Shown: positions 3,091-9,180 of the stretch, one piece after another
How positions within the stretch are numbered: position 1 is the stretch's first letter
Layout of the letters: the number at the start of each line of letters is the position of its first letter
Source: a virus
Direction: 5' to 3' (one strand)
IMG/VR virus record: IMGVR_UViG_3300007735_000786
Coordinates: 8,752 to 72,751 of that record
DNA length: 64,000 nucleotides
The notes under the pieces: generated by a model
What the model saw: the letters and a program-made list of their open reading frames with translations, nothing else
Told to the model about the DNA's origin: nothing
Database searches by the model: none
Program-made: the position numbers and the translations under genes

Positions 3091-3349
3091 TGTAGATGAT
3101 GCTCGCATTAAGATGAGTTGTCATGACCATGCTCTTAAAGACTTTGATCTCCAGCTGGAGATGAATGACTTACAAACGGGTATGTTAAAAGATGGAGATG
3201 AGATTATACCGTACCATGGGGATGAGCATGATGACCTGGAAGCAAAAAGATTAAAACTTCTTTTTGGTAAACGGTTTCATCAGAATGCTAGTAATGCTTA
3301 TTGGTATTGGTTGCAAAAAGAAAAACCATGTAGTAATAAAGTAAATTGA
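3017..3349 (+). CDS. hypothetical protein
   Basis: Track ORF 2756-3349; ATG at 3017 is the likelier start. Confidence 0.55.
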   Translation: MSQKWTWLHPSIQESFYLKIPAPTDVDDARIKMSCHDHALKDFDLQLEMNDLQTGMLKDGDEIIPYHGDEHDDLEAKRLKLLFGKRFHQNASNAYWYWLQKEKPCSNKVN

Positions 3350-3378
3350 ACTACAATTAAAGAAAGATAAGGAGTCTC

Positions 3379-3642
3379 ATGGACGTAGATCCCACATTAG
3401 TTAATCTTATATCTGGGTTTACATCAGAAGGGACTCCTCTTTCTGCTACCATTGGTTCAAAGATTGAACATGCTGTCGTTATCTTAACGGCAGCAATGTT
3501 AGCTAATGAAAACTTAGCTGCTTCTATGGATGCACCTGAGATGGTAGATGCAGCAATTAACTATTACCACATCATTCAAGAACGTCTTGGTTACTACCAA
3601 CAAAATCAAAGTCAGTCATTGGAACGGCTACTAAATAACTAA
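3379..3642 (+). CDS. hypothetical protein
   Basis: AAGGAG RBS upstream; 87 aa. Confidence 0.65.
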   Translation: MDVDPTLVNLISGFTSEGTPLSATIGSKIEHAVVILTAAMLANENLAASMDAPEMVDAAINYYHIIQERLGYYQQNQSQSLERLLNN

Positions 3643-5356: not shown

Positions 5357-5908
5357 ATGTATACCCCCGGTCCTCAAGCTGTACCACAGGTTCAAACCCC
5401 TCCTGTTCAAGAGGTAACGCAACCACAAGCTAAGATCAAAGCACCTAGTAAATCTAAGGGTGGGGATGTTGGTTCTTTTATTCAGCAGTTAATTTCATTA
5501 ATGGCTTATGTGCACCAGCTTCAGGTGCAAAGTCACTTGATTCATCTGAATATAGAAGGGTCAAATTTTTTTGGCGTACACAAGTTCCTGAAACATCAGT
5601 ACGAAGCACACATCGAACAGTTTGATAAACTTGGGGAATTTATTCGCAGCATGGACTATCTGCTCCCTTCCTGCCACAACGGTTTGATGGAAGCAAGCCC
5701 AGAGTTCAAGCACTGCACCAGCTATAAAGCAACTGAGATGCTAGGTGTGTACTACAAAAATCTTGAGGAGTTGGGCATGAAGACTAAAAAACTAGAGCCT
5801 ATTGCTGCCAAGGTAGGTGCCATTGATATCCAGAATTACATGGCTGAGCTGTGTGGGGAAGCGTTTAAAGCGGCATGGATGATTAAAGCTACTCTTCGAA
5901 ACTCTTAA
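5357..5908 (+). CDS. dps: Dps/ferritin-like DNA protection protein
   Basis: HLIHLNIEGSNFFGVHKFL..QYE....FDKLGEFIR ferroxidase pattern and C-terminal KAAWMIKA. Confidence 0.85.
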   Translation: MYTPGPQAVPQVQTPPVQEVTQPQAKIKAPSKSKGGDVGSFIQQLISLMAYVHQLQVQSHLIHLNIEGSNFFGVHKFLKHQYEAHIEQFDKLGEFIRSMDYLLPSCHNGLMEASPEFKHCTSYKATEMLGVYYKNLEELGMKTKKLEPIAAKVGAIDIQNYMAELCGEAFKAAWMIKATLRNS

Positions 5909-6344
5909 GATACTTAATAGCTGAGTAAAATAAACTTACATCATCATTAAGCATTCCTAAAGAAGTATTACATTTTATACACAATAACCCTCTTACTTTT
6001 CCTGTTTTGTGGCAATGATCTACGGATAAAGTTTGTTTACTTGAACATTTTTTGTTGCAGATTTTACATACTTCTTTTTGTTTTTCAAGCATTTTGTAAT
6101 ATTCTTTAGCTGATAACCCATAACGTTTTATCCATTTTTCTTGTTTTTCCTTTTGATTTAGACCATGCCAATGCTTTAAACTTGCTTTGCGATATATTTC
6201 AGGATTTTTTTTGCGATATTCATTTGTTATTTTTGTATGACAAAGCTTGCAACGTCTTGCTCGTCCATCTTTTACCCTTGATTCTTTGTAAAAATCTTCA
6301 AGTAGTTTTAGTTCATTGCAGACACCGCAAACTTTTTTTGACAT
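5889..6344 (-). CDS. recombination endonuclease VII-family homing endonuclease
   Basis: CKIC...LSVDHCHKTGKVRGLLCIKCNTSLG plus an N-terminal zinc finger. Confidence 0.85.
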   Translation of the reverse strand: MSKKVCGVCNELKLLEDFYKESRVKDGRARRCKLCHTKITNEYRKKNPEIYRKASLKHWHGLNQKEKQEKWIKRYGLSAKEYYKMLEKQKEVCKICNKKCSSKQTLSVDHCHKTGKVRGLLCIKCNTSLGMLNDDVSLFYSAIKYLKSFEE

Positions 6345-6373
6345 TACGAAAAATTTTAACTACGAATATTTTA

Positions 6374-6619
6374 TCATTGCCAGTGCTCAAGCCTATGACA
6401 GTTAGCACATAAAGGAATACATTTATCAATTTCTTTTTGGATGCGCTGCCAGGCGTATCCTCCATGTAAAAGAGCTGATACTTTGTTATCCTTTTCTTTT
6501 TCGTGATGAAAATCTAACAATCGATAATCATCTGTTCCACAGCGCCTGCAACACAACGTCTTTTTGTACTCCAGCATTTTTTCTTTATTTTTTTGAAGTG
6601 TGCTTTTGGTGGATGGCAC
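6374..6619 (-). CDS. small HNH nuclease
   Basis: CRRCG...LDFHH...KCIPLCANCHR. Confidence 0.75.
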   Translation of the reverse strand: MPSTKSTLQKNKEKMLEYKKTLCCRRCGTDDYRLLDFHHEKEKDNKVSALLHGGYAWQRIQKEIDKCIPLCANCHRLEHWQ

Positions 6620-6663
6620 AAACTTCTTAAAACAAGTACACTGAGTATAGCTACTTTATTCAC

Positions 6664-6999
6664 ATGGAATCTGAAGACACCTACTTACTATTTCTGCGTA
6701 TTGATCCAGGGGCAGATTATGGGAAGATTAAACTTGGACAATTAGAGTTAACTTGGTTTAATCCAGATGGGTGTGATGATGGATCCTTTTATTTGGGTTG
6801 GGGTAAATACTGGGAATTACGGATGGCATACTATAGATCATATGATATGTTTACTGGTAAGTTTGATAATGACTACAACTTTCCTGACTGGGAAATTATC
6901 TGTTACCAACCAGAGTTAGGTAGTTGGAAGCGTAGCGTCAATATTACAGGACGCGTAATGGATGCTATTAATTGCGTTAAGCGATTGTTTGGTAAATAA
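6664..6999 (+). CDS. hypothetical protein
   Basis: 111-aa ORF. Confidence 0.55.
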   Translation: MESEDTYLLFLRIDPGADYGKIKLGQLELTWFNPDGCDDGSFYLGWGKYWELRMAYYRSYDMFTGKFDNDYNFPDWEIICYQPELGSWKRSVNITGRVMDAINCVKRLFGK

Positions 7000-7072
7000 T
7001 CGACCGTGCATGGAATCGAACCAGCTATCCAACTCCCTTGTCGGGGTGTCCTTACCAATGGACTAACGGTCG
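7000..7072 (-). ncRNA. tRNA-like element with aberrant anticodon arm (pseudo-tRNA or t-element)
   Basis: 7-bp acceptor stem CGACCGT/ACGGTCG+A, D arm GTCC-ATTGGTAA-GGAC, T loop TTCGATT; anticodon arm is not 5+7+5. Confidence 0.7.
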
Positions 7073-7074
7073 GT

Positions 7075-7290
7075 GCGCCCCCAGGTTTGTGCATCGTTGA
7101 GAGGCATAGGGGGTCAGCGAGCAGGAGACGATCAACTCCCCTGGCCTACCAAAGTAGGACTTAGTACGCAAACCAAGTGTTAGAGGACTTGGCTGCACCC
7201 TACCGGCAGAGCAGTAGGGGTGGTAGATGGACCAGGTGTGTCGCCTTCTGAGCTATGTGCTCAACGCGCACAGTGACCTGGCCTCTATCA
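7075..7290 (-). ncRNA. array of GC-rich RNA hairpins (putative ncRNA or ncRNA cluster)
   Basis: Six consecutive stems in a non-coding GC-rich tract directly downstream of an extended -10 promoter. Confidence 0.55.
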
Positions 7291-7296
7291 ATTAAT

Positions 7297-7305
7297 AGTA
7301 TAACA
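7297..7305 (-). promoter_or_regulatory. extended -10 promoter TGnTATACT
   Basis: Minus strand TGTTATACT, 6 nt before the first stem of the hairpin array. Confidence 0.55.
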
Positions 7306-7332
7306 AAAAAATCCCGGTTGCTCAAGCCGGGA
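7305..7332 (-). terminator. intrinsic terminator
   Basis: TCCCGGCTTG-AG-CAACCGGGA hairpin followed by T7 on the minus strand. Confidence 0.7.
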
Positions 7333-7382
7333 CATCAACTTTCGGAATCCCTCCTTAGGATTTTGAGCGGGTTAAGTATACC

Positions 7383-7553
7383 TTATTTTTTCTTGGCTGC
7401 AGCTTCTTTCTTCTTGGCAATCATTTCTTTAAACTTGTCGCGTGCTTCCATTTGACCTTTAGATGCACCACCCTTACCCTTGGGTGCAGCAGCTTCTTTA
7501 CCCTTAGCAGGCATTGCTTTACCCTTAGGAGCAACAGCTTTTTTCTTTTCCAT
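7383..7553 (-). CDS. small Lys/Ala-rich basic protein (56 aa)
   Basis: MEKKKAVAPKGKAMPAKGKEAAAPKGKGG...; not in the ORF track. Confidence 0.6.
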   Translation of the reverse strand: MEKKKAVAPKGKAMPAKGKEAAAPKGKGGASKGQMEARDKFKEMIAKKKEAAAKKK

Positions 7554-7582
7554 TGGAATATTTATTCTCTTTTAATTATAGG

Positions 7583-7792
7583 TTACTTCTTCTTTGTTGG
7601 TTTAGATTGTCTTGCTTTTTTACCAGCTTCTTTGGCGGCTTTTGTGTTAGGTACAAATTGCTTGCCGGACTTACTAGCTTCTCTCTTCTTGCGATCAGTT
7701 TTTTCACGTTCTTCTTTTGATAAAGAAGCCCATGCTTTTTCTGGTAAATACCGTTTGGTATATCCAGGTTGGATAGCTTTGTCAGCAGCCAT
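7583..7792 (-). CDS. C-terminal half of a DUF5872-like protein, as a separate gene
   Basis: RYLPEKAWASLS.EE...T..KK....GKQFVPNT; TAATG-coupled to the upstream gene. Confidence 0.7.
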   Translation of the reverse strand: MAADKAIQPGYTKRYLPEKAWASLSKEEREKTDRKKREASKSGKQFVPNTKAAKEAGKKARQSKPTKKK

Positions 7793-8100
7793 TACTTTGA
7801 CTCCTTATATTTTTTAGCCGCAGACTTAGCTTTACTACGTTTTTCATATTCATCTTTCGTGCCCCACTTCTCTTTTCCCCACCTCTCTAAATCTTTTTGC
7901 TTCTCACCTTTCCCCCCTTGGTATCCACCACCAGCTTTTTCATATTCTTGTGCAACAAGTTGAGCCTTACGTGCCGAAATTATTTAGCCTCACGGCTACG
8001 ACCATTCCCCTGGTTTACCACCACGACCTTCACGCATTACACGGTTTTTAATGCGTTCACGAAGATCGGGTTTGGTGTACTTGCTTTTGTCTTCAGTCAT
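7792..8100 (-). CDS. DUF5872-like protein interrupted by a 24-nt putative ribosomal bypass
   Basis: MTEDKSKYTKPDLRERIKNRVMREGRGGKPGEWS, then a 24-nt insert with stops, then ARKAQLVAQEYEKAGGGY...; removing the insert restores GKPGEWSARKAQ (94 aa). Confidence 0.75.
7975..8001 (-). other. candidate translational bypass element (UCG take-off, UAG hairpin, UCG landing)
   Basis: TCG TAGCC-GTGA-GGCTA AATAATT TCG GCA. Confidence 0.65.
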
Positions 8101-8226
8101 AACTTCCTCGCTCTTTAAGATAAGTAACTGCGTTTGTCAATACATCTATATTATCACCAAACAAACCCAGGGCCCTGTTGCATCACGTAATTCCGGCTTA
8201 GTATATTTGTTATCTTCTTGAGCCAT
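8093..8226 (-). pseudogene. deletion scar: duplicated DUF5872 5' end fused to the 3' end of an EndoVII endonuclease
   Basis: 8226-8185 reads MAQEDNKYTKPELR; 8182-8093 reads CNRALGLFGDNIDVLTNAVTYLKERGSYD*, similar to the C-terminus of the intact EndoVII at 5889. Confidence 0.7.
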
Positions 8227-8339
8227 TACGTTCTTGTTTTTGTTCCTTTAATATTTTATCCCACTTACACGGACGCAAGAACTTATCCCAGTCTTTTCCT
8301 GGGTCTGGGATTTTTTCTTCTAGTTCTAAAAAGAACTTT

Positions 8340-8558
8340 TCAAATCTTTCCGATTCGGAAGGCAACTGTATCGTCATCTTTATCTTTAAGTTTTTGCATA
8401 ATGTCATTCATCTGATCCAGGGTGTCGATTCGACAGATGAGTTCAGAGATAGCACTGACAATTATGGGATGTTCGGTGCGTGCAGCAAAGGCTAGTGCCT
8501 CACGTAAATGAGAGACTGATTCATCTAGTGAACCTTTGACTTGACTGGAGAGTGCCAT
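8340..8558 (-). CDS. hypothetical cyanophage protein
   Basis: MALS.QV..SL.E..SHLREALAFAARTEHP motif. Confidence 0.65.
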   Translation of the reverse strand: MALSSQVKGSLDESVSHLREALAFAARTEHPIIVSAISELICRIDTLDQMNDIMQKLKDKDDDTVAFRIGKI

Positions 8559-8589
8559 GATTGGAATTTATGGTATTTCTAGTATAGGT

Positions 8590-9180
8590 CTAACACCAAA
8601 TCCAACCAACTTGATAGGAATCAAAGTACGGATCTACGCCTAGTGCTTCCATTAATTCATGTACCAAGCGTCCTTTCCCATGGCGTTTACTGTCGGCTGC
8701 TCTAATATTGTCATCAACAACAATTAAAGTACCTGGACCCAAGAGGTTGTAGCCTGCAAACAGTTCCTTTAGATGATGGGATGCTGGTGCCCAATCGTTA
8801 TTCCAGTCGGTAATGTTGTAGGAATCTAGGTATAGGAGGTCTATTGGACCAAAGAGGGTGTCTAGTGTTTCAACGGAATCACCTTCTATTACCTTGGCAT
8901 GTTTGGTGTTCTTACGAGCCAAGGCGCAAGCCGCTGGATCGTTATCAATTGAAATTAATTTTCCAGTGCCACGGATGTCGATGTAGTTGTCAAAGAGAAG
9001 GGTGGAGCACCCATCGCCTGTGTAGTTGTTTTCTTCTCTGTAGGTACCGGTCTCTACGATTAGTGGTTCTTTAGAGGCATCTAGGTATTGAAAGATTTTT
9101 TCAAAGGTTGATTGCCTGGCACCAAGACGTGTTTTAATGGGATCGAAGTAGTCATTCCAAGTGGTTTGAGTTGATTTCAT
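8590..9180 (-). CDS. class I SAM-dependent methyltransferase
   Basis: IVETGT, SIDND, GDSVE, DLLYLDS and IVVDD motifs. Confidence 0.8.
   Translation of the reverse strand: MKSTQTTWNDYFDPIKTRLGARQSTFEKIFQYLDASKEPLIVETGTYREENNYTGDGCSTLLFDNYIDIRGTGKLISIDNDPAACALARKNTKHAKVIEGDSVETLDTLFGPIDLLYLDSYNITDWNNDWAPASHHLKELFAGYNLLGPGTLIVVDDNIRAADSKRHGKGRLVHELMEALGVDPYFDSYQVGWIWC

What the first reader, a model, noticed from the sequence alone, without database searches (positions are those of the whole stretch)
7975..8001. Candidate programmed ribosomal bypass (hop) of 24 nt in a cyanophage gene
Seen on the minus strand: ...GAA TGG TCG | TAG CCG TGA GGC TAA ATA ATT TCG | GCA CGT AAG.... Codon 34 (UCG) is followed directly by UAG, which forms the 5' arm of the hairpin UAGCC-GUGA-GGCUA (GNRA loop). 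An unstructured AU spacer follows, then a second UCG. Skipping the 24 nt restores the conserved GKPGEWSARKAQ motif and an otherwise intact 94-aa protein ending in a TAATG junction. All three stop codons are in frame, so readthrough or code reassignment cannot explain it. Known: matched take-off and landing codons, an adjacent stop and a stem-loop define T4 gene 60 bypassing and yeast mitochondrial byps. The upstream 34-aa K/R-rich peptide could act as the nascent-peptide signal. Inference: a minimal, functional hop element. I do not know of one described in cyanophages.
Basis: partly seen in the sequence, partly recalled or inferred. Interest (0 to 1): 0.93.

Follow-up and report, generated by a model that had tools for sequence, protein, structure and literature searches.

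The report
Ribosome-hop gap left by homing cassette
A small conserved gene of a lake cyanophage-like virus is cut by 21 untranslatable bases that came in with a selfish nuclease gene (now mostly deleted here), and about 100 wild versions indicate that ribosomes hop from one UCG codon to the next, as in phage T4 gene 60, though nobody has tested this at the bench.

Summary
On the minus strand a 34-codon frame (8100-7999) ends in UCG and is followed by UAG. The UAG opens the hairpin UAGCC-GUGA-GGCUA, then comes an AU spacer, a second UCG (7977-7975) and 60 more conserved codons.

The gap is not private to this contig. In 137 loci (100 distinct sequences) from two public collections, the same site carries gaps of 23-33 nt. 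Of the 100, 36 are not multiples of three, 96 keep the same 5-bp stem, 92 have GNRA loops and 99 land on UCN (95 on UCG). Both flanking frames are open and under purifying selection.

The gap travels with an Endonuclease_7-type homing endonuclease and a replacement gene start as one cassette of about 760 nt. In this window a 612-nt deletion has reduced the nuclease to a 28-codon scar, but the gap remains.

The best reading is a programmed translational bypass that parallels T4 mobA/gene 60. It sits in another gene, with an unrelated nuclease, in another phage group. The take-off stem has the same sequence as T4's.

No published description turned up in three full-text searches. This scan had already reported the same cassette on other genomes. 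The hop itself is untested: no RNA or protein data were available.

The parts
8183..8226 (-). Stub of the original (recipient) gene start, 'copy A': MAQEDNKYTKPELR(D). The listed ORF runs on out of register to a stop at 8146.
   Evidence: It has the same position, and the same overlap with the upstream gene, as the start of the intact S-EIVl homologue. The deletion junction at about 8183 was mapped against L207.
8093..8182 (-). Scar of the homing endonuclease: its last 28 codons (CNRALGLFGDNIDVLTNAVTYLKERGSYD) plus the stop TGA at 8095-8093. It overlaps the new ATG in another frame.
   Evidence: tblastn with the 213-aa L006 nuclease matches residues 185-212 at 89% identity. The full-length relatives are Pfam Endonuclease_7 with E about 1e-22. 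Compared with L207, 612 nt are missing.
7999..8100 (-). Cassette-borne replacement gene start, the 'N-part' or 'copy B': 34 codons, MTEDKSKYTKPDLRERIKNRVMREGRGGKPGEWS. It ends in the take-off codon UCG (8001-7999).
   Evidence: The N-part is intact in 94 of 95 distinct relatives that hold it. pN/pS is 0.24 over all pairs and 0.047 over close pairs. Glu32 is present in all gap-bearing copies, against Gln in 49 of 49 distinct insert-free copies.
7985..7998 (-). Take-off hairpin UAGCC-GUGA-GGCUA. Its first three bases are the in-frame UAG stop (7998-7996).
   Evidence: The stem is identical in 96 of 100 distinct sequences and the loop is GNRA in 92 of 100. The T4 gene 60 gap opens with the same stem sequence, TAGCC-TTCG-GGCTA.
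7978..7984 (-). A/U-only spacer AAUAAUU.
   Evidence: In 21 distinct gaps the spacers vary in length and sequence. They total A 91, T 82, C 26, G 5, and contain no 'TC' dinucleotide, against 9.3 expected.
7975..7977 (-). Landing codon UCG.
   Evidence: Landing is TCG in 95, TCT in 3 and TCA in 1 of 100 distinct sequences, while neighbouring codons vary freely at synonymous sites.
7792..7974 (-). Rest of the gene, the 'C-part': 60 codons, ARKAQLVAQEYEKAGGGY...KESK, plus TAA (7794-7792), which overlaps the next gene's ATG.
   Evidence: It has no in-frame ATG, GTG or TTG. The frame is open for at least 46 codons in 99 of 100 relatives; the remaining one is cut by its contig end. pN/pS is 0.20 over all pairs and 0.085 over close pairs. 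It is the only copy in the 72.7-kb genome record.

Best explanation
This is a programmed translational bypass (hop) element that entered the gene as part of a homing-endonuclease cassette.

Origin (shown by comparison). An Endonuclease_7-type homing endonuclease inserted at the Trp33/Ser34 codons of a small conserved gene. The gene is DUF5872-like and of unknown function. The cassette brought its own copy of codons 1-34 with a new start, 20-30 untranslatable bases, and the landing codon. In this window a later 612-nt deletion removed the nuclease down to 28 codons.

Mechanism (inferred by analogy with T4 gene 60). The ribosome translates the 34-codon N-part and pauses with peptidyl-tRNA-Ser on UCG in the P site and UAG in the A site. 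The UAG forms the 5' side of the UAGCC-GNRA-GGCUA hairpin. The tRNA then lets go of its codon, the ribosome slides over the hairpin and the A/U spacer, which holds no UCN triplet, and the tRNA re-pairs with the next UCG 24 nt downstream. Translation resumes at GCA (Ala) and yields the 94-aa protein.

Role of the gap at the DNA level (inferred). It splits the nuclease's target sequence and so protects cassette-bearing genomes from cutting.
For: 1. Recurrence.
- 4 of 80 protein-retrieved IMG/VR loci have a gap at the same codon, 75 are contiguous there, and 1 is cut by its contig end.
- Pattern scans gave 38, 51 relevant of 54, and 50 IMG/VR stretches, and 84 relevant of 92 metagenome stretches.
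- After removing duplicates, 137 loci give 100 distinct sequences.

2. Architecture under constraint (unless noted).
- The stem TAGCC/GGCTA is kept in 96 of 100.
- Loops are GNRA in 92, UUAG in 6 and AUAA in 2.
- Hop lengths are 23-33 nt, and 36 of 100 are not multiples of three.
- Landing is TCG in 95, TCT in 3 and TCA in 1.
- The take-off codon is TCG in 50 of 50 where no pattern forced it.
- Adjacent Gly, Ala and Arg codons use 3-5 synonymous codons each.
- Insert-free homologues use TCG at this Ser in only 2 of 50 distinct sites.

3. Spacers avoid premature landing sites. There are 0 'TC' in 204 spacer nt, against 9.3 expected, and 0 of 10,000 shuffles were as low.

4. Both halves are translated.
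- pN/pS is 0.24 for the N-part and 0.20 for the C-part over all pairs, and 0.047 and 0.085 over pairs with pS < 0.35.
- The C-part has no start codon of its own.
- The N-part lies inside the cassette, so it is not needed as a homology arm for homing.

5. The gap is retained after nuclease loss. 22 distinct sequences with only a remnant or no nuclease, this window among them, keep the gap and both open frames, with pN/pS of 0.28 and 0.24. Only 1 of 100 (L131) is decayed.

6. The cassette is mobile.
- L025 and L027 are 99.2% identical on both flanks and differ by a clean insertion of about 763 nt. The donor-derived tract runs through the landing TCG plus 9 nt.
- The nuclease frame is open and full-length in 67 of 100.
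- It is never adjacent in 77 insert-free loci.

7. The gapped gene is the only copy in a record rated 92% complete.

8. The geometry is the same as in T4 gene 60, and the stem sequence is the same. GNRA and UUAG loops, gaps as short as 20 nt, AU-rich 3' gaps and loss of the nuclease with retention of the gap are all described for gene 60 homologues (bioRxiv 10.1101/2022.08.31.505936, sections 4 and 11 read).
Against: There is no direct evidence that the full-length protein is made. No RNA run held the stretch, and no proteomic data were available.

The stem shows no compensatory change, so it is supported by conservation only.

Two distinct sequences (loci L123, L140, L202) have lost the hairpin yet keep both frames. 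Either the hairpin is dispensable, or those copies are dying.

There is no GAG/GGA mini-SD 5-7 nt before the landing codon, as T4 has. The only SD-like run (GAGG, AAGG or GGAGG) lies inside the hairpin, 9-19 nt upstream.

The sequences are related by descent. Counts of copies are therefore not counts of independent events, and all patterns contained TAG.

C-parts may owe part of their good state to recent homing into working genes.
Confidence: 0.75

Rival explanations
1. Dead gene carried by a selfish cassette. The gap serves only to protect against the nuclease, translation stops at UAG, and the flanking frames look healthy only because the cassette keeps homing into working genes.
For: The gap arrives with the nuclease. 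Many cassettes have near-identical N-parts next to very different C-parts, as expected from repeated homing. One decayed copy exists, L131. The gene's function is unknown.
Against: The N-part lies inside the cassette and would be free to decay. Instead it is intact in 94 of 95, with pN/pS of 0.24 overall and 0.047 in close pairs, while its synonymous sites are near saturation at pS 0.61.

22 distinct nuclease-less sequences, which can no longer home, keep both frames and the gap.

The take-off and landing codons stay matched, using the window's rarest Ser codon.

Spacers avoid UCN.

It is the only copy of a gene that is conserved across this phage group.
Confidence: 0.12
2. Two products, or termination followed by re-initiation. 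The 34-aa peptide is released at UAG and the C-part is started separately, using the SD-like GAGG in the hairpin.
For: An SD-like GAGG, AAGG or GGAGG lies 9-19 nt before the landing codon in all 20 of 21 distinct gaps that keep the hairpin.
Against: The window's C-part has no in-frame ATG, GTG or TTG.

The codon before the landing site differs among copies: ATT, ACT, AAT, TTT, CTA, TTA, TAT, ATA, CAA. In the 28- and 29-nt classes it is the stop TGA.

What is conserved at the resume point is a Ser codon that matches the take-off codon.
Confidence: 0.05
3. The 21-24 nt are removed from the RNA by splicing or editing before translation.
For: None from any call. It cannot be excluded without RNA data.
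Against: The gap is far smaller than any self-splicing intron (established knowledge). No Rfam family matches the site: the only match in 6000-9000 is abiF at 7077-7113. The matched-codon and stop-codon design has no role in splicing.
Confidence: 0.03
4. Assembly or sequencing artefact, or a private mutation of this contig.
For: None.
Against: The same architecture is found in 136 other loci from two collections. These include a metagenome contig that is 100% identical over 315 nt (L216).
Confidence: 0.01

Closest known systems
Phage T4 gene 39 / mobA / gene 60 element with its 50-nt translational bypass, and its homologues in Myoviridae topoisomerase genes (Manning & Atkins, bioRxiv 10.1101/2022.08.31.505936; sections 4 and 11 read. 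Huang 1988 and Bonocora 2011 are recalled and are cited in that text.)
   Same: A homing endonuclease, an element-borne replacement of the target's codons and a stop-led coding gap form one mobile unit. [quoted passage not shown] UAG follows the take-off codon directly and forms the 5' side of a tetraloop hairpin. The 5-bp stem sequence is identical, UAGCC/GGCUA. [quoted passage not shown] Some lineages have lost the nuclease but kept the gap. The insertion is clean against near-identical genomes that lack the element.
   Different: The target is a 94-aa DUF5872-like gene, not Topo2L. The nuclease has a C-terminal Endonuclease_7 domain and shows no detectable similarity to MobA of RB55. The hop is 23-33 nt rather than mostly 50. 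The codons are Ser UCG rather than Gly or Asp. There is no mini-SD 5-7 nt before landing. The gene is not split into two working subunits: the whole N-terminus is replaced and the old start is left as a stub. The phages are S-EIVl-like and from environmental contigs, not T4-like. No bench evidence exists.
Magnusiomyces capitatus mitochondrial 'byps' (Lang 2014 and Nosek 2015 are recalled; they are mentioned in passages of 10.1101/2022.08.31.505936 and 10.1101/2024.12.09.627546)
   Same: Short coding gaps of tens of nt are hopped between matched or wobble-matched codons. The 3' part is AU-rich. No SD is needed.
   Different: Those gaps are mitochondrial, with many per genome in several genes, and the passages I read mention no homing endonuclease. 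The gap here is a single site in one phage gene, tied to a nuclease cassette.
Streptomyces phage Hau3 terminase, two 10-nt UUA-led inserts proposed to be bypassed (PMC10732093; passages read)
   Same: A phage gene is interrupted by short non-coding blocks that are absent from relatives. A slow or unreadable A-site codon sits at take-off.
   Different: The trigger there is a hungry UUA codon tied to host tRNA availability, with 10-nt blocks. The term 'homing endonuclease' occurs 0 times in that text. Here the gap has a stop codon inside a hairpin and is linked to a nuclease.
Free-standing Endonuclease VII-type HNH homing endonucleases of phages (annotated as such in 2216 matching phage records)
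   Same: The nuclease family is the same: Pfam Endonuclease_7 and PHROG 'endonuclease VII'.
   Different: The best identity to any isolated phage is below 60%, and in the listed rows 40.5% or less. None of the listed records is annotated with a coding gap; I did not inspect them.

Membership tests
T4 gene 60-type programmed translational bypass element (functional class) | Matched (identical or wobble-compatible) take-off and landing codons | tested here: met
   In the window both are UCG. The take-off codon is TCG in 50 of 50 unforced cases. Landing is TCG in 95, TCT in 3 and TCA in 1 of 100.
T4 gene 60-type programmed translational bypass element (functional class) | [quoted passage not shown] | tested here: met
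   UAG lies at 7998-7996. In relatives TAG was part of every search pattern, so its invariance is unbiased only in the 4 protein-retrieved loci.
T4 gene 60-type programmed translational bypass element (functional class) | A take-off stem-loop that includes the A-site codon | tested here: met
   The hairpin UAGCC-GUGA-GGCUA is in the MFE structure. The stem is kept in 96 of 100, and T4 has the same stem sequence. There is no covariation: 0 compensatory pairs.
T4 gene 60-type programmed translational bypass element (functional class) | An AU-rich 3' gap free of premature landing triplets | tested here: met
   Spacers total A 91, T 82, C 26, G 5, with 0 'TC' against 9.3 expected.
T4 gene 60-type programmed translational bypass element (functional class) | A mini Shine-Dalgarno (GAG, GGA, GGG or AGG) 5-7 nt 5' of the landing codon | tested here: not met
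   The spacer before landing has almost no G. The only SD-like run is in the hairpin, 9-19 nt upstream. The preprint lists one gene 60 homologue, MGS2, with GAGG 12 nt upstream.
T4 gene 60-type programmed translational bypass element (functional class) | A nascent-peptide signal that promotes take-off | not testable with these tools
   Indirect evidence only. The N-part is under purifying selection. Glu32 is fixed in gap-bearing copies, against Gln32 in 49 of 49 insert-free copies.
T4 gene 60-type programmed translational bypass element (functional class) | A full-length product shown to be made across the gap | not testable with these tools
   No RNA holder was listed, and the one run that was laid does not cover the site. 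No proteomics were available.
MobA element (homology class of Manning & Atkins) | Inserted in the Topo2L gene and carrying a MobA-family HNH endonuclease | tested here: not met
   The target gene is DUF5872-like. BLASTP of the nuclease against RB55 MobA gives E = 1.7. The Pfam domains differ in family and position.
Homing-endonuclease mobile cassette (general) | A clean presence/absence difference between near-identical genomes at a conserved target | tested here: met
   L025 and L027 have 99.2% identical flanks and differ by an insert of about 763 nt at the Trp33/Ser34 codons.
Homing-endonuclease mobile cassette (general) | The nuclease cuts the insert-free target and spares the gap-bearing allele | not testable with these tools
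   This is inferred only from the position of the gap at the insertion point.
Pfam PF02945 Endonuclease_7 (the cassette nuclease) | Score above the gathering threshold | tested here: met
   L006, L025 and L088 score 79.6-81 bits against a threshold of 23.6. The window holds only the last 28 codons.
Pfam PF19197 DUF5872 (the interrupted gene) | Score above the gathering threshold | tested here: inconclusive
   Scores are 18.9-22 bits against a threshold of 27.5 for the read-through form and two intact homologues. PHROG phrog_17747 matches at 3.8e-19 and has no known function.

The most novel reading that the evidence does not exclude
The UAGCC-tetraloop-GGCUA take-off hairpin, followed by a short A/U spacer, is a portable bypass module of about 20 nt. 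It would share descent with the T4 gene 60 gap and would have been passed between unrelated homing endonucleases and unrelated genes, from phages of proteobacteria to phages of cyanobacteria. It would be enough for efficient hopping on bacterial ribosomes without a mini-SD.
Probability: 0.2. Interest if true: 0.92.

Novelty: new variant of a known kind. Interest (0 to 1): 0.8.

Why it matters
Efficient programmed bypassing is one of the rarest ways of reading a gene. According to the 2022 preprint I read, all gene 60-like cassettes sit in one gene, Topo2L, of Myoviridae, and the cassette 'remains unique'.

A second family would show three things. It is in another gene, with an unrelated nuclease, in another phage group, and it has about 100 natural variants of length, loop and spacer.
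- 'Nuclease plus hop' would be a recurring evolutionary solution, not a one-off.
- The variants would form a ready-made mutational series for finding the minimal requirements: a 5-bp hairpin, no mini-SD, and hops of 23-33 nt.
- It would warn annotators that such genes are being called as two fragments or as pseudogenes.

This window adds the state in which the nuclease has been deleted but the gap is kept.

Tried and rejected
RNA evidence. The look-up of sequencing runs listed no RNA holder. It listed one run of uncertain kind holding 6% of the words. When that run was laid, its single 207-nt contig covered 8306-8512 only, not the gap. This says nothing about expression.

Stem covariation. RNAalifold on 34 representatives, one for each distinct gap-plus-landing sequence among the 100, found 0 compensatory pairs.

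Thermodynamics. The 76-nt region is not unusually stable (z = -0.63).

Phage-encoded tRNA-Ser. ARAGORN found no tRNA in the window.

The same hairpin in other genes. A scan for VNNTAGCCGTAAGGCTAA gave 49 stretches. The two with matched codons (L233/L244 with CCG, L252 with GTT) lie antisense to or between other genes, and I rejected them as chance. This covered only one loop sequence.

Homology of the nuclease to MobA. None was detectable.

Readthrough or code change. Rejected: there are three different in-frame stops, and 36 of 100 gaps are not multiples of three.

Published record. Searches of the held library found no description of a bypass in cyanophages or in this gene. Supplementary tables of the 2022 preprint (Table S2 and the files) were not seen and could list further cases.

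Earlier notes of this scan. One note (e1-5369312) says a similar claim on other DNA was checked and 'part of it fell'. Two further look-ups did not show which part.
Full report
What is there. On the minus strand a frame opens at ATG 8100 and reads 34 codons, MTEDKSKYTKPDLRERIKNRVMREGRGGKPGEWS, ending in TCG (8001-7999). It is followed by TAG CCG TGA GGC TAA ATA ATT TCG (7998-7975). After that come 60 more codons, ARKAQLVAQEYEKAGGGY...KESK, to TAA at 7794-7792, which overlaps the ATG of the next gene. All three stops are in frame. TAGCC-GTGA-GGCTA is a 5-bp hairpin with a GNRA loop, and it appears in the predicted MFE structure. The 76-nt region as a whole folds no better than shuffles (z = -0.63). 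The C-part has no in-frame ATG, GTG or TTG. The only isolated relative is Synechococcus phage S-EIVl, at 75% identity over 45% of an 871-nt query. It has an uninterrupted 94-aa homologue reading ...KKGQWSARKSQ.... The gene is DUF5872-like, but only below Pfam's threshold (18.9-22 bits against 27.5), and it matches a PHROG of unknown function. The window belongs to a 72,751-base virus record rated 92% complete, and this is the record's only copy of the gene.

The gap recurs at the same codon. Of 80 IMG/VR loci retrieved with the C-part protein, 75 are contiguous at this site and one is cut by its contig end. Four (L006, L025, L026, L043) carry an insert of 24, 27, 23 and 24 nt after the same TCG. 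In L026 the insert has 23 nt, so the frame is restored only if reading resumes at the second TCG. Four pattern scans enlarged the set.
- A pattern with the hairpin gave 38 contigs.
- A hairpin-free pattern gave 54 stretches, 3 of them unrelated.
- A pattern that left the take-off codon free gave 50 stretches, all with TCG.
- The hairpin-free pattern in the metagenome collection gave 92 stretches, 8 of them unrelated. Of the remaining 84, two were cut off inside the gap and two more were too truncated to score.
After dropping four loci that were the same contigs fetched twice, 137 loci collapse to 100 distinct sequences over -99 to +150. The two collections overlap, and the sequences are related by descent, so these are variants and not independent events.

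What is conserved and what is free (n = 100 distinct sequences).
- The stem TAGCC/GGCTA is kept in 96. The exceptions are two copies with no hairpin at all, one with a mismatch at the loop-closing pair, and the decayed L131.
- Loops are GTAA in 59, GTGA in 25, GGGA in 3, GAAA in 3, GCAA in 1 and GAGA in 1, which makes 92 GNRA. A further 6 are TTAG and 2 are ATAA.
- Hop length, counted from take-off to landing, is 23, 24, 25, 26, 27, 28, 29, 32 or 33 nt. In 36 cases it is not a multiple of three.
- The landing codon, which no pattern forced, is TCG in 95, TCT in 3 and TCA in 1. The hundredth sequence is the decayed L131.
In contrast, the neighbouring codons vary freely. Gly27 uses four codons, the Ala after landing uses four, and the Arg uses five. 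The same Ser in 50 distinct insert-free sites is TCT 19, TCA 13, AGT 9, AGC 5, TCG 2 and TCC 2. TCG is the rarest Ser codon in the window's long ORFs, at 4.9%. The spacers differ in length and sequence right up to the landing codon, are almost free of G, and contain no 'TC' in 204 nt. Mononucleotide shuffles give 9.3 on average, and none of 10,000 was as low. This is the pattern expected if the peptidyl-tRNA-Ser must not re-pair too early. The stem shows no compensatory change, so it is supported by conservation and not by covariation.

Both halves look translated.
- The N-part has a start codon and no stop in 94 of the 95 distinct sequences that hold it.
- The C-part is open for at least 46 codons in 99 of 100. 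The remaining one is cut by its contig end.
- By Nei-Gojobori counting over all pairs, the N-part has pS 0.61 and pN 0.146 (ratio 0.24). The C-part has pS 0.83 and pN 0.167 (ratio 0.20).
- Restricted to pairs with pS below 0.35, the ratios are 0.047 for the N-part (212 pairs) and 0.085 for the C-part (37 pairs).
These are pairwise figures on related sequences, not a tree-based model. Residue 32 separates the two classes. It is Glu in every gap-bearing copy found with the one pattern that did not force it (all 43 loci). It is Gln in 49 of 49 distinct insert-free N-parts. It may serve the hop, or nuclease immunity, or be a lineage marker.

Where the gap came from. In L006 a 213-aa ORF lies between a truncated first copy of the gene start and the full second copy that precedes the gap. 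That ORF is Pfam Endonuclease_7 (1.7e-22). L025 (with gap) and L027 (without) are 99.2% identical over 1166 and 1963 nt of flank. They differ by about 763 nt inserted between the Trp33 and Ser34 codons. The alignment shows the recipient's own codons 1-32 ending in a TGA created at the junction. Then come the nuclease, the new codons 1-34, the gap, the landing TCG, and nine more donor-type bases (GCT AGA AAA against GCA CGC AAG) before identity resumes. So the landing codon belongs to the cassette.

The state of the nuclease varies among the 100 distinct sequences.
- The nuclease frame is open and full-length in 67. That is 60, plus 7 whose frame starts at Met12.
- It is reduced to a 3' remnant in 12.
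- It is absent in 11.
- It cannot be judged in 10.
No cassette-type nuclease lies next to any of 77 insert-free loci. Two of those have a 34-35% identical paralogue more than 1 kb away. The 22 nuclease-less sequences other than L131 keep the gap and both frames, with pN/pS of 0.28 and 0.24.

This window. Upstream of the new ATG lie the last 28 codons of the nuclease (8182-8099, 89% identical to L006 residues 185-212) and its stop (8095-8093). Before that lies the orphan start MAQEDNKYTKPELR (8226-8183). Compared with L207, the closest copy with a full-length nuclease frame, 612 nt are missing, with the junction at about 8183. The window is therefore a cassette whose nuclease has been deleted while the gap persists.

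Comparison with what is known. The T4 gene 60 gap, annotated at 2852-2803 in AF158101, opens GGA TAG CCT TCG GGC TA. That is take-off codon, UAG, then the same UAGCC/GGCUA stem around a UUCG loop. Since UAG and its complement are fixed by the design, only the two C-G pairs are a coincidence. The identity is therefore weak evidence for common descent.

The 2022 preprint by Manning and Atkins (sections 4 and 11 read) describes gene 60-like cassettes as exclusive to Topo2L of Myoviridae. It also reports most of the traits seen here:
- an element-encoded replacement of target codons;
- matched or wobble-matched codons;
- UUCG, UUUG, GNRA and UUAG loops;
- a clade with a gap of only 20 nt;
- AU-rich 3' gaps without premature landing triplets;
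- replacement of MobA by other nucleases;
- loss of the nuclease with retention of the gap.

The present cassette differs in five ways.
- The target gene is different.
- The nuclease is different. RB55 MobA has an N-terminal HNH match and shows no BLASTP similarity (E = 1.7).
- The codon is Ser UCG.
- There is no mini-SD 5-7 nt before landing. The only SD-like run is inside the hairpin, 9-19 nt upstream.
- The whole N-terminus is replaced, rather than the gene being split into two subunits.

Other published candidates are the 10-nt UUA-led inserts of the Streptomyces phage Hau3 terminase (PMC10732093, passages) and the mitochondrial byps of Magnusiomyces (recalled; mentioned). Three full-text searches found no description of a bypass in cyanophages or in this gene. 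Supplements were closed.

Earlier notes of this scan. The same cassette has already been reported on other genomes by follow-up agents, with the same reading. My analysis was made before I read those notes, and it agrees with them. A note on a different hop claim says that 'part of it fell' on checking, and I could not find out which part.

Verdict. The best explanation is a programmed ribosomal hop of 24 nt, 23-33 nt in relatives, that keeps the gene working after invasion by a homing-endonuclease cassette. I put this at about 0.75.
- Shown here: recurrence of the gap, matched codons, frame-independent restoration, selection on both halves, linkage to the nuclease, clean insertion, and persistence after nuclease loss.
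- Inferred: the hop itself, its efficiency, the roles of the hairpin, of Glu32 and of the nascent peptide, and protection from the nuclease.
The main rival, a dead gene dragged along by a selfish cassette, is hard to square with two findings. The cassette-internal N-part is under selection, and 22 nuclease-less lineages keep everything intact.

Noticed in passing
window 7077-7113 (-), within the ORF-poor stretch of about 6900-7250: Full-length match to the Rfam abiF RNA (RF03085): 49.7 bits against a gathering score of 37, E = 1.6e-7.
   Followed up: no
window 5889-6344 (-) and 6374-6619 (-): There is a second, intact Endonuclease VII-like ORF of 151 aa, 34% identical to the cassette nuclease over 149 aa. 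Next to it is an 81-aa ORF ending ...CANCHRLEHWQ, which looks HNH-like (motif recalled, not tested). This part of the genome seems rich in homing-type nucleases.
   Followed up: partly
window 8002-7999 with 7976-7973 (-); alignment A2 columns 30-33 with 65-68: G-UCG (the end of the Trp codon plus the take-off codon) can pair with CG-GC (the landing codon plus the start of the Ala codon). This would close the whole gap into one stem. It is invariant in 32 of 34 representatives and broken where landing is TCT or TCA. It may be one reason for the rare TCG, or a by-product of the coding sequence.
   Followed up: no
L123 4494-4520; also L140 and L202: One lineage has lost the hairpin (TAGCT-ATAA-TATTA) but keeps TAG, both TCG codons, both open frames and an open nuclease frame. 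It is a natural test of whether the hairpin is needed.
   Followed up: partly
L131 about 1033-1060: This is the only decayed copy. It has no start codon, a frameshift in the N-part, a broken stem (GGCCA) and no landing codon. It shows what decay looks like in this family.
   Followed up: partly
L001 (S-EIVl) 3172-3402: S-EIVl has an extra 76-aa ORF between the DUF5872-like gene and the next conserved gene. In the window those two genes abut with a TAATG overlap.
   Followed up: no
L216 (metagenome contig of 2793 nt): It is 100% identical to the window over 315 nt, including the gap. It may be the same virus population, or even the same source, so it was not counted as independent.
   Followed up: no
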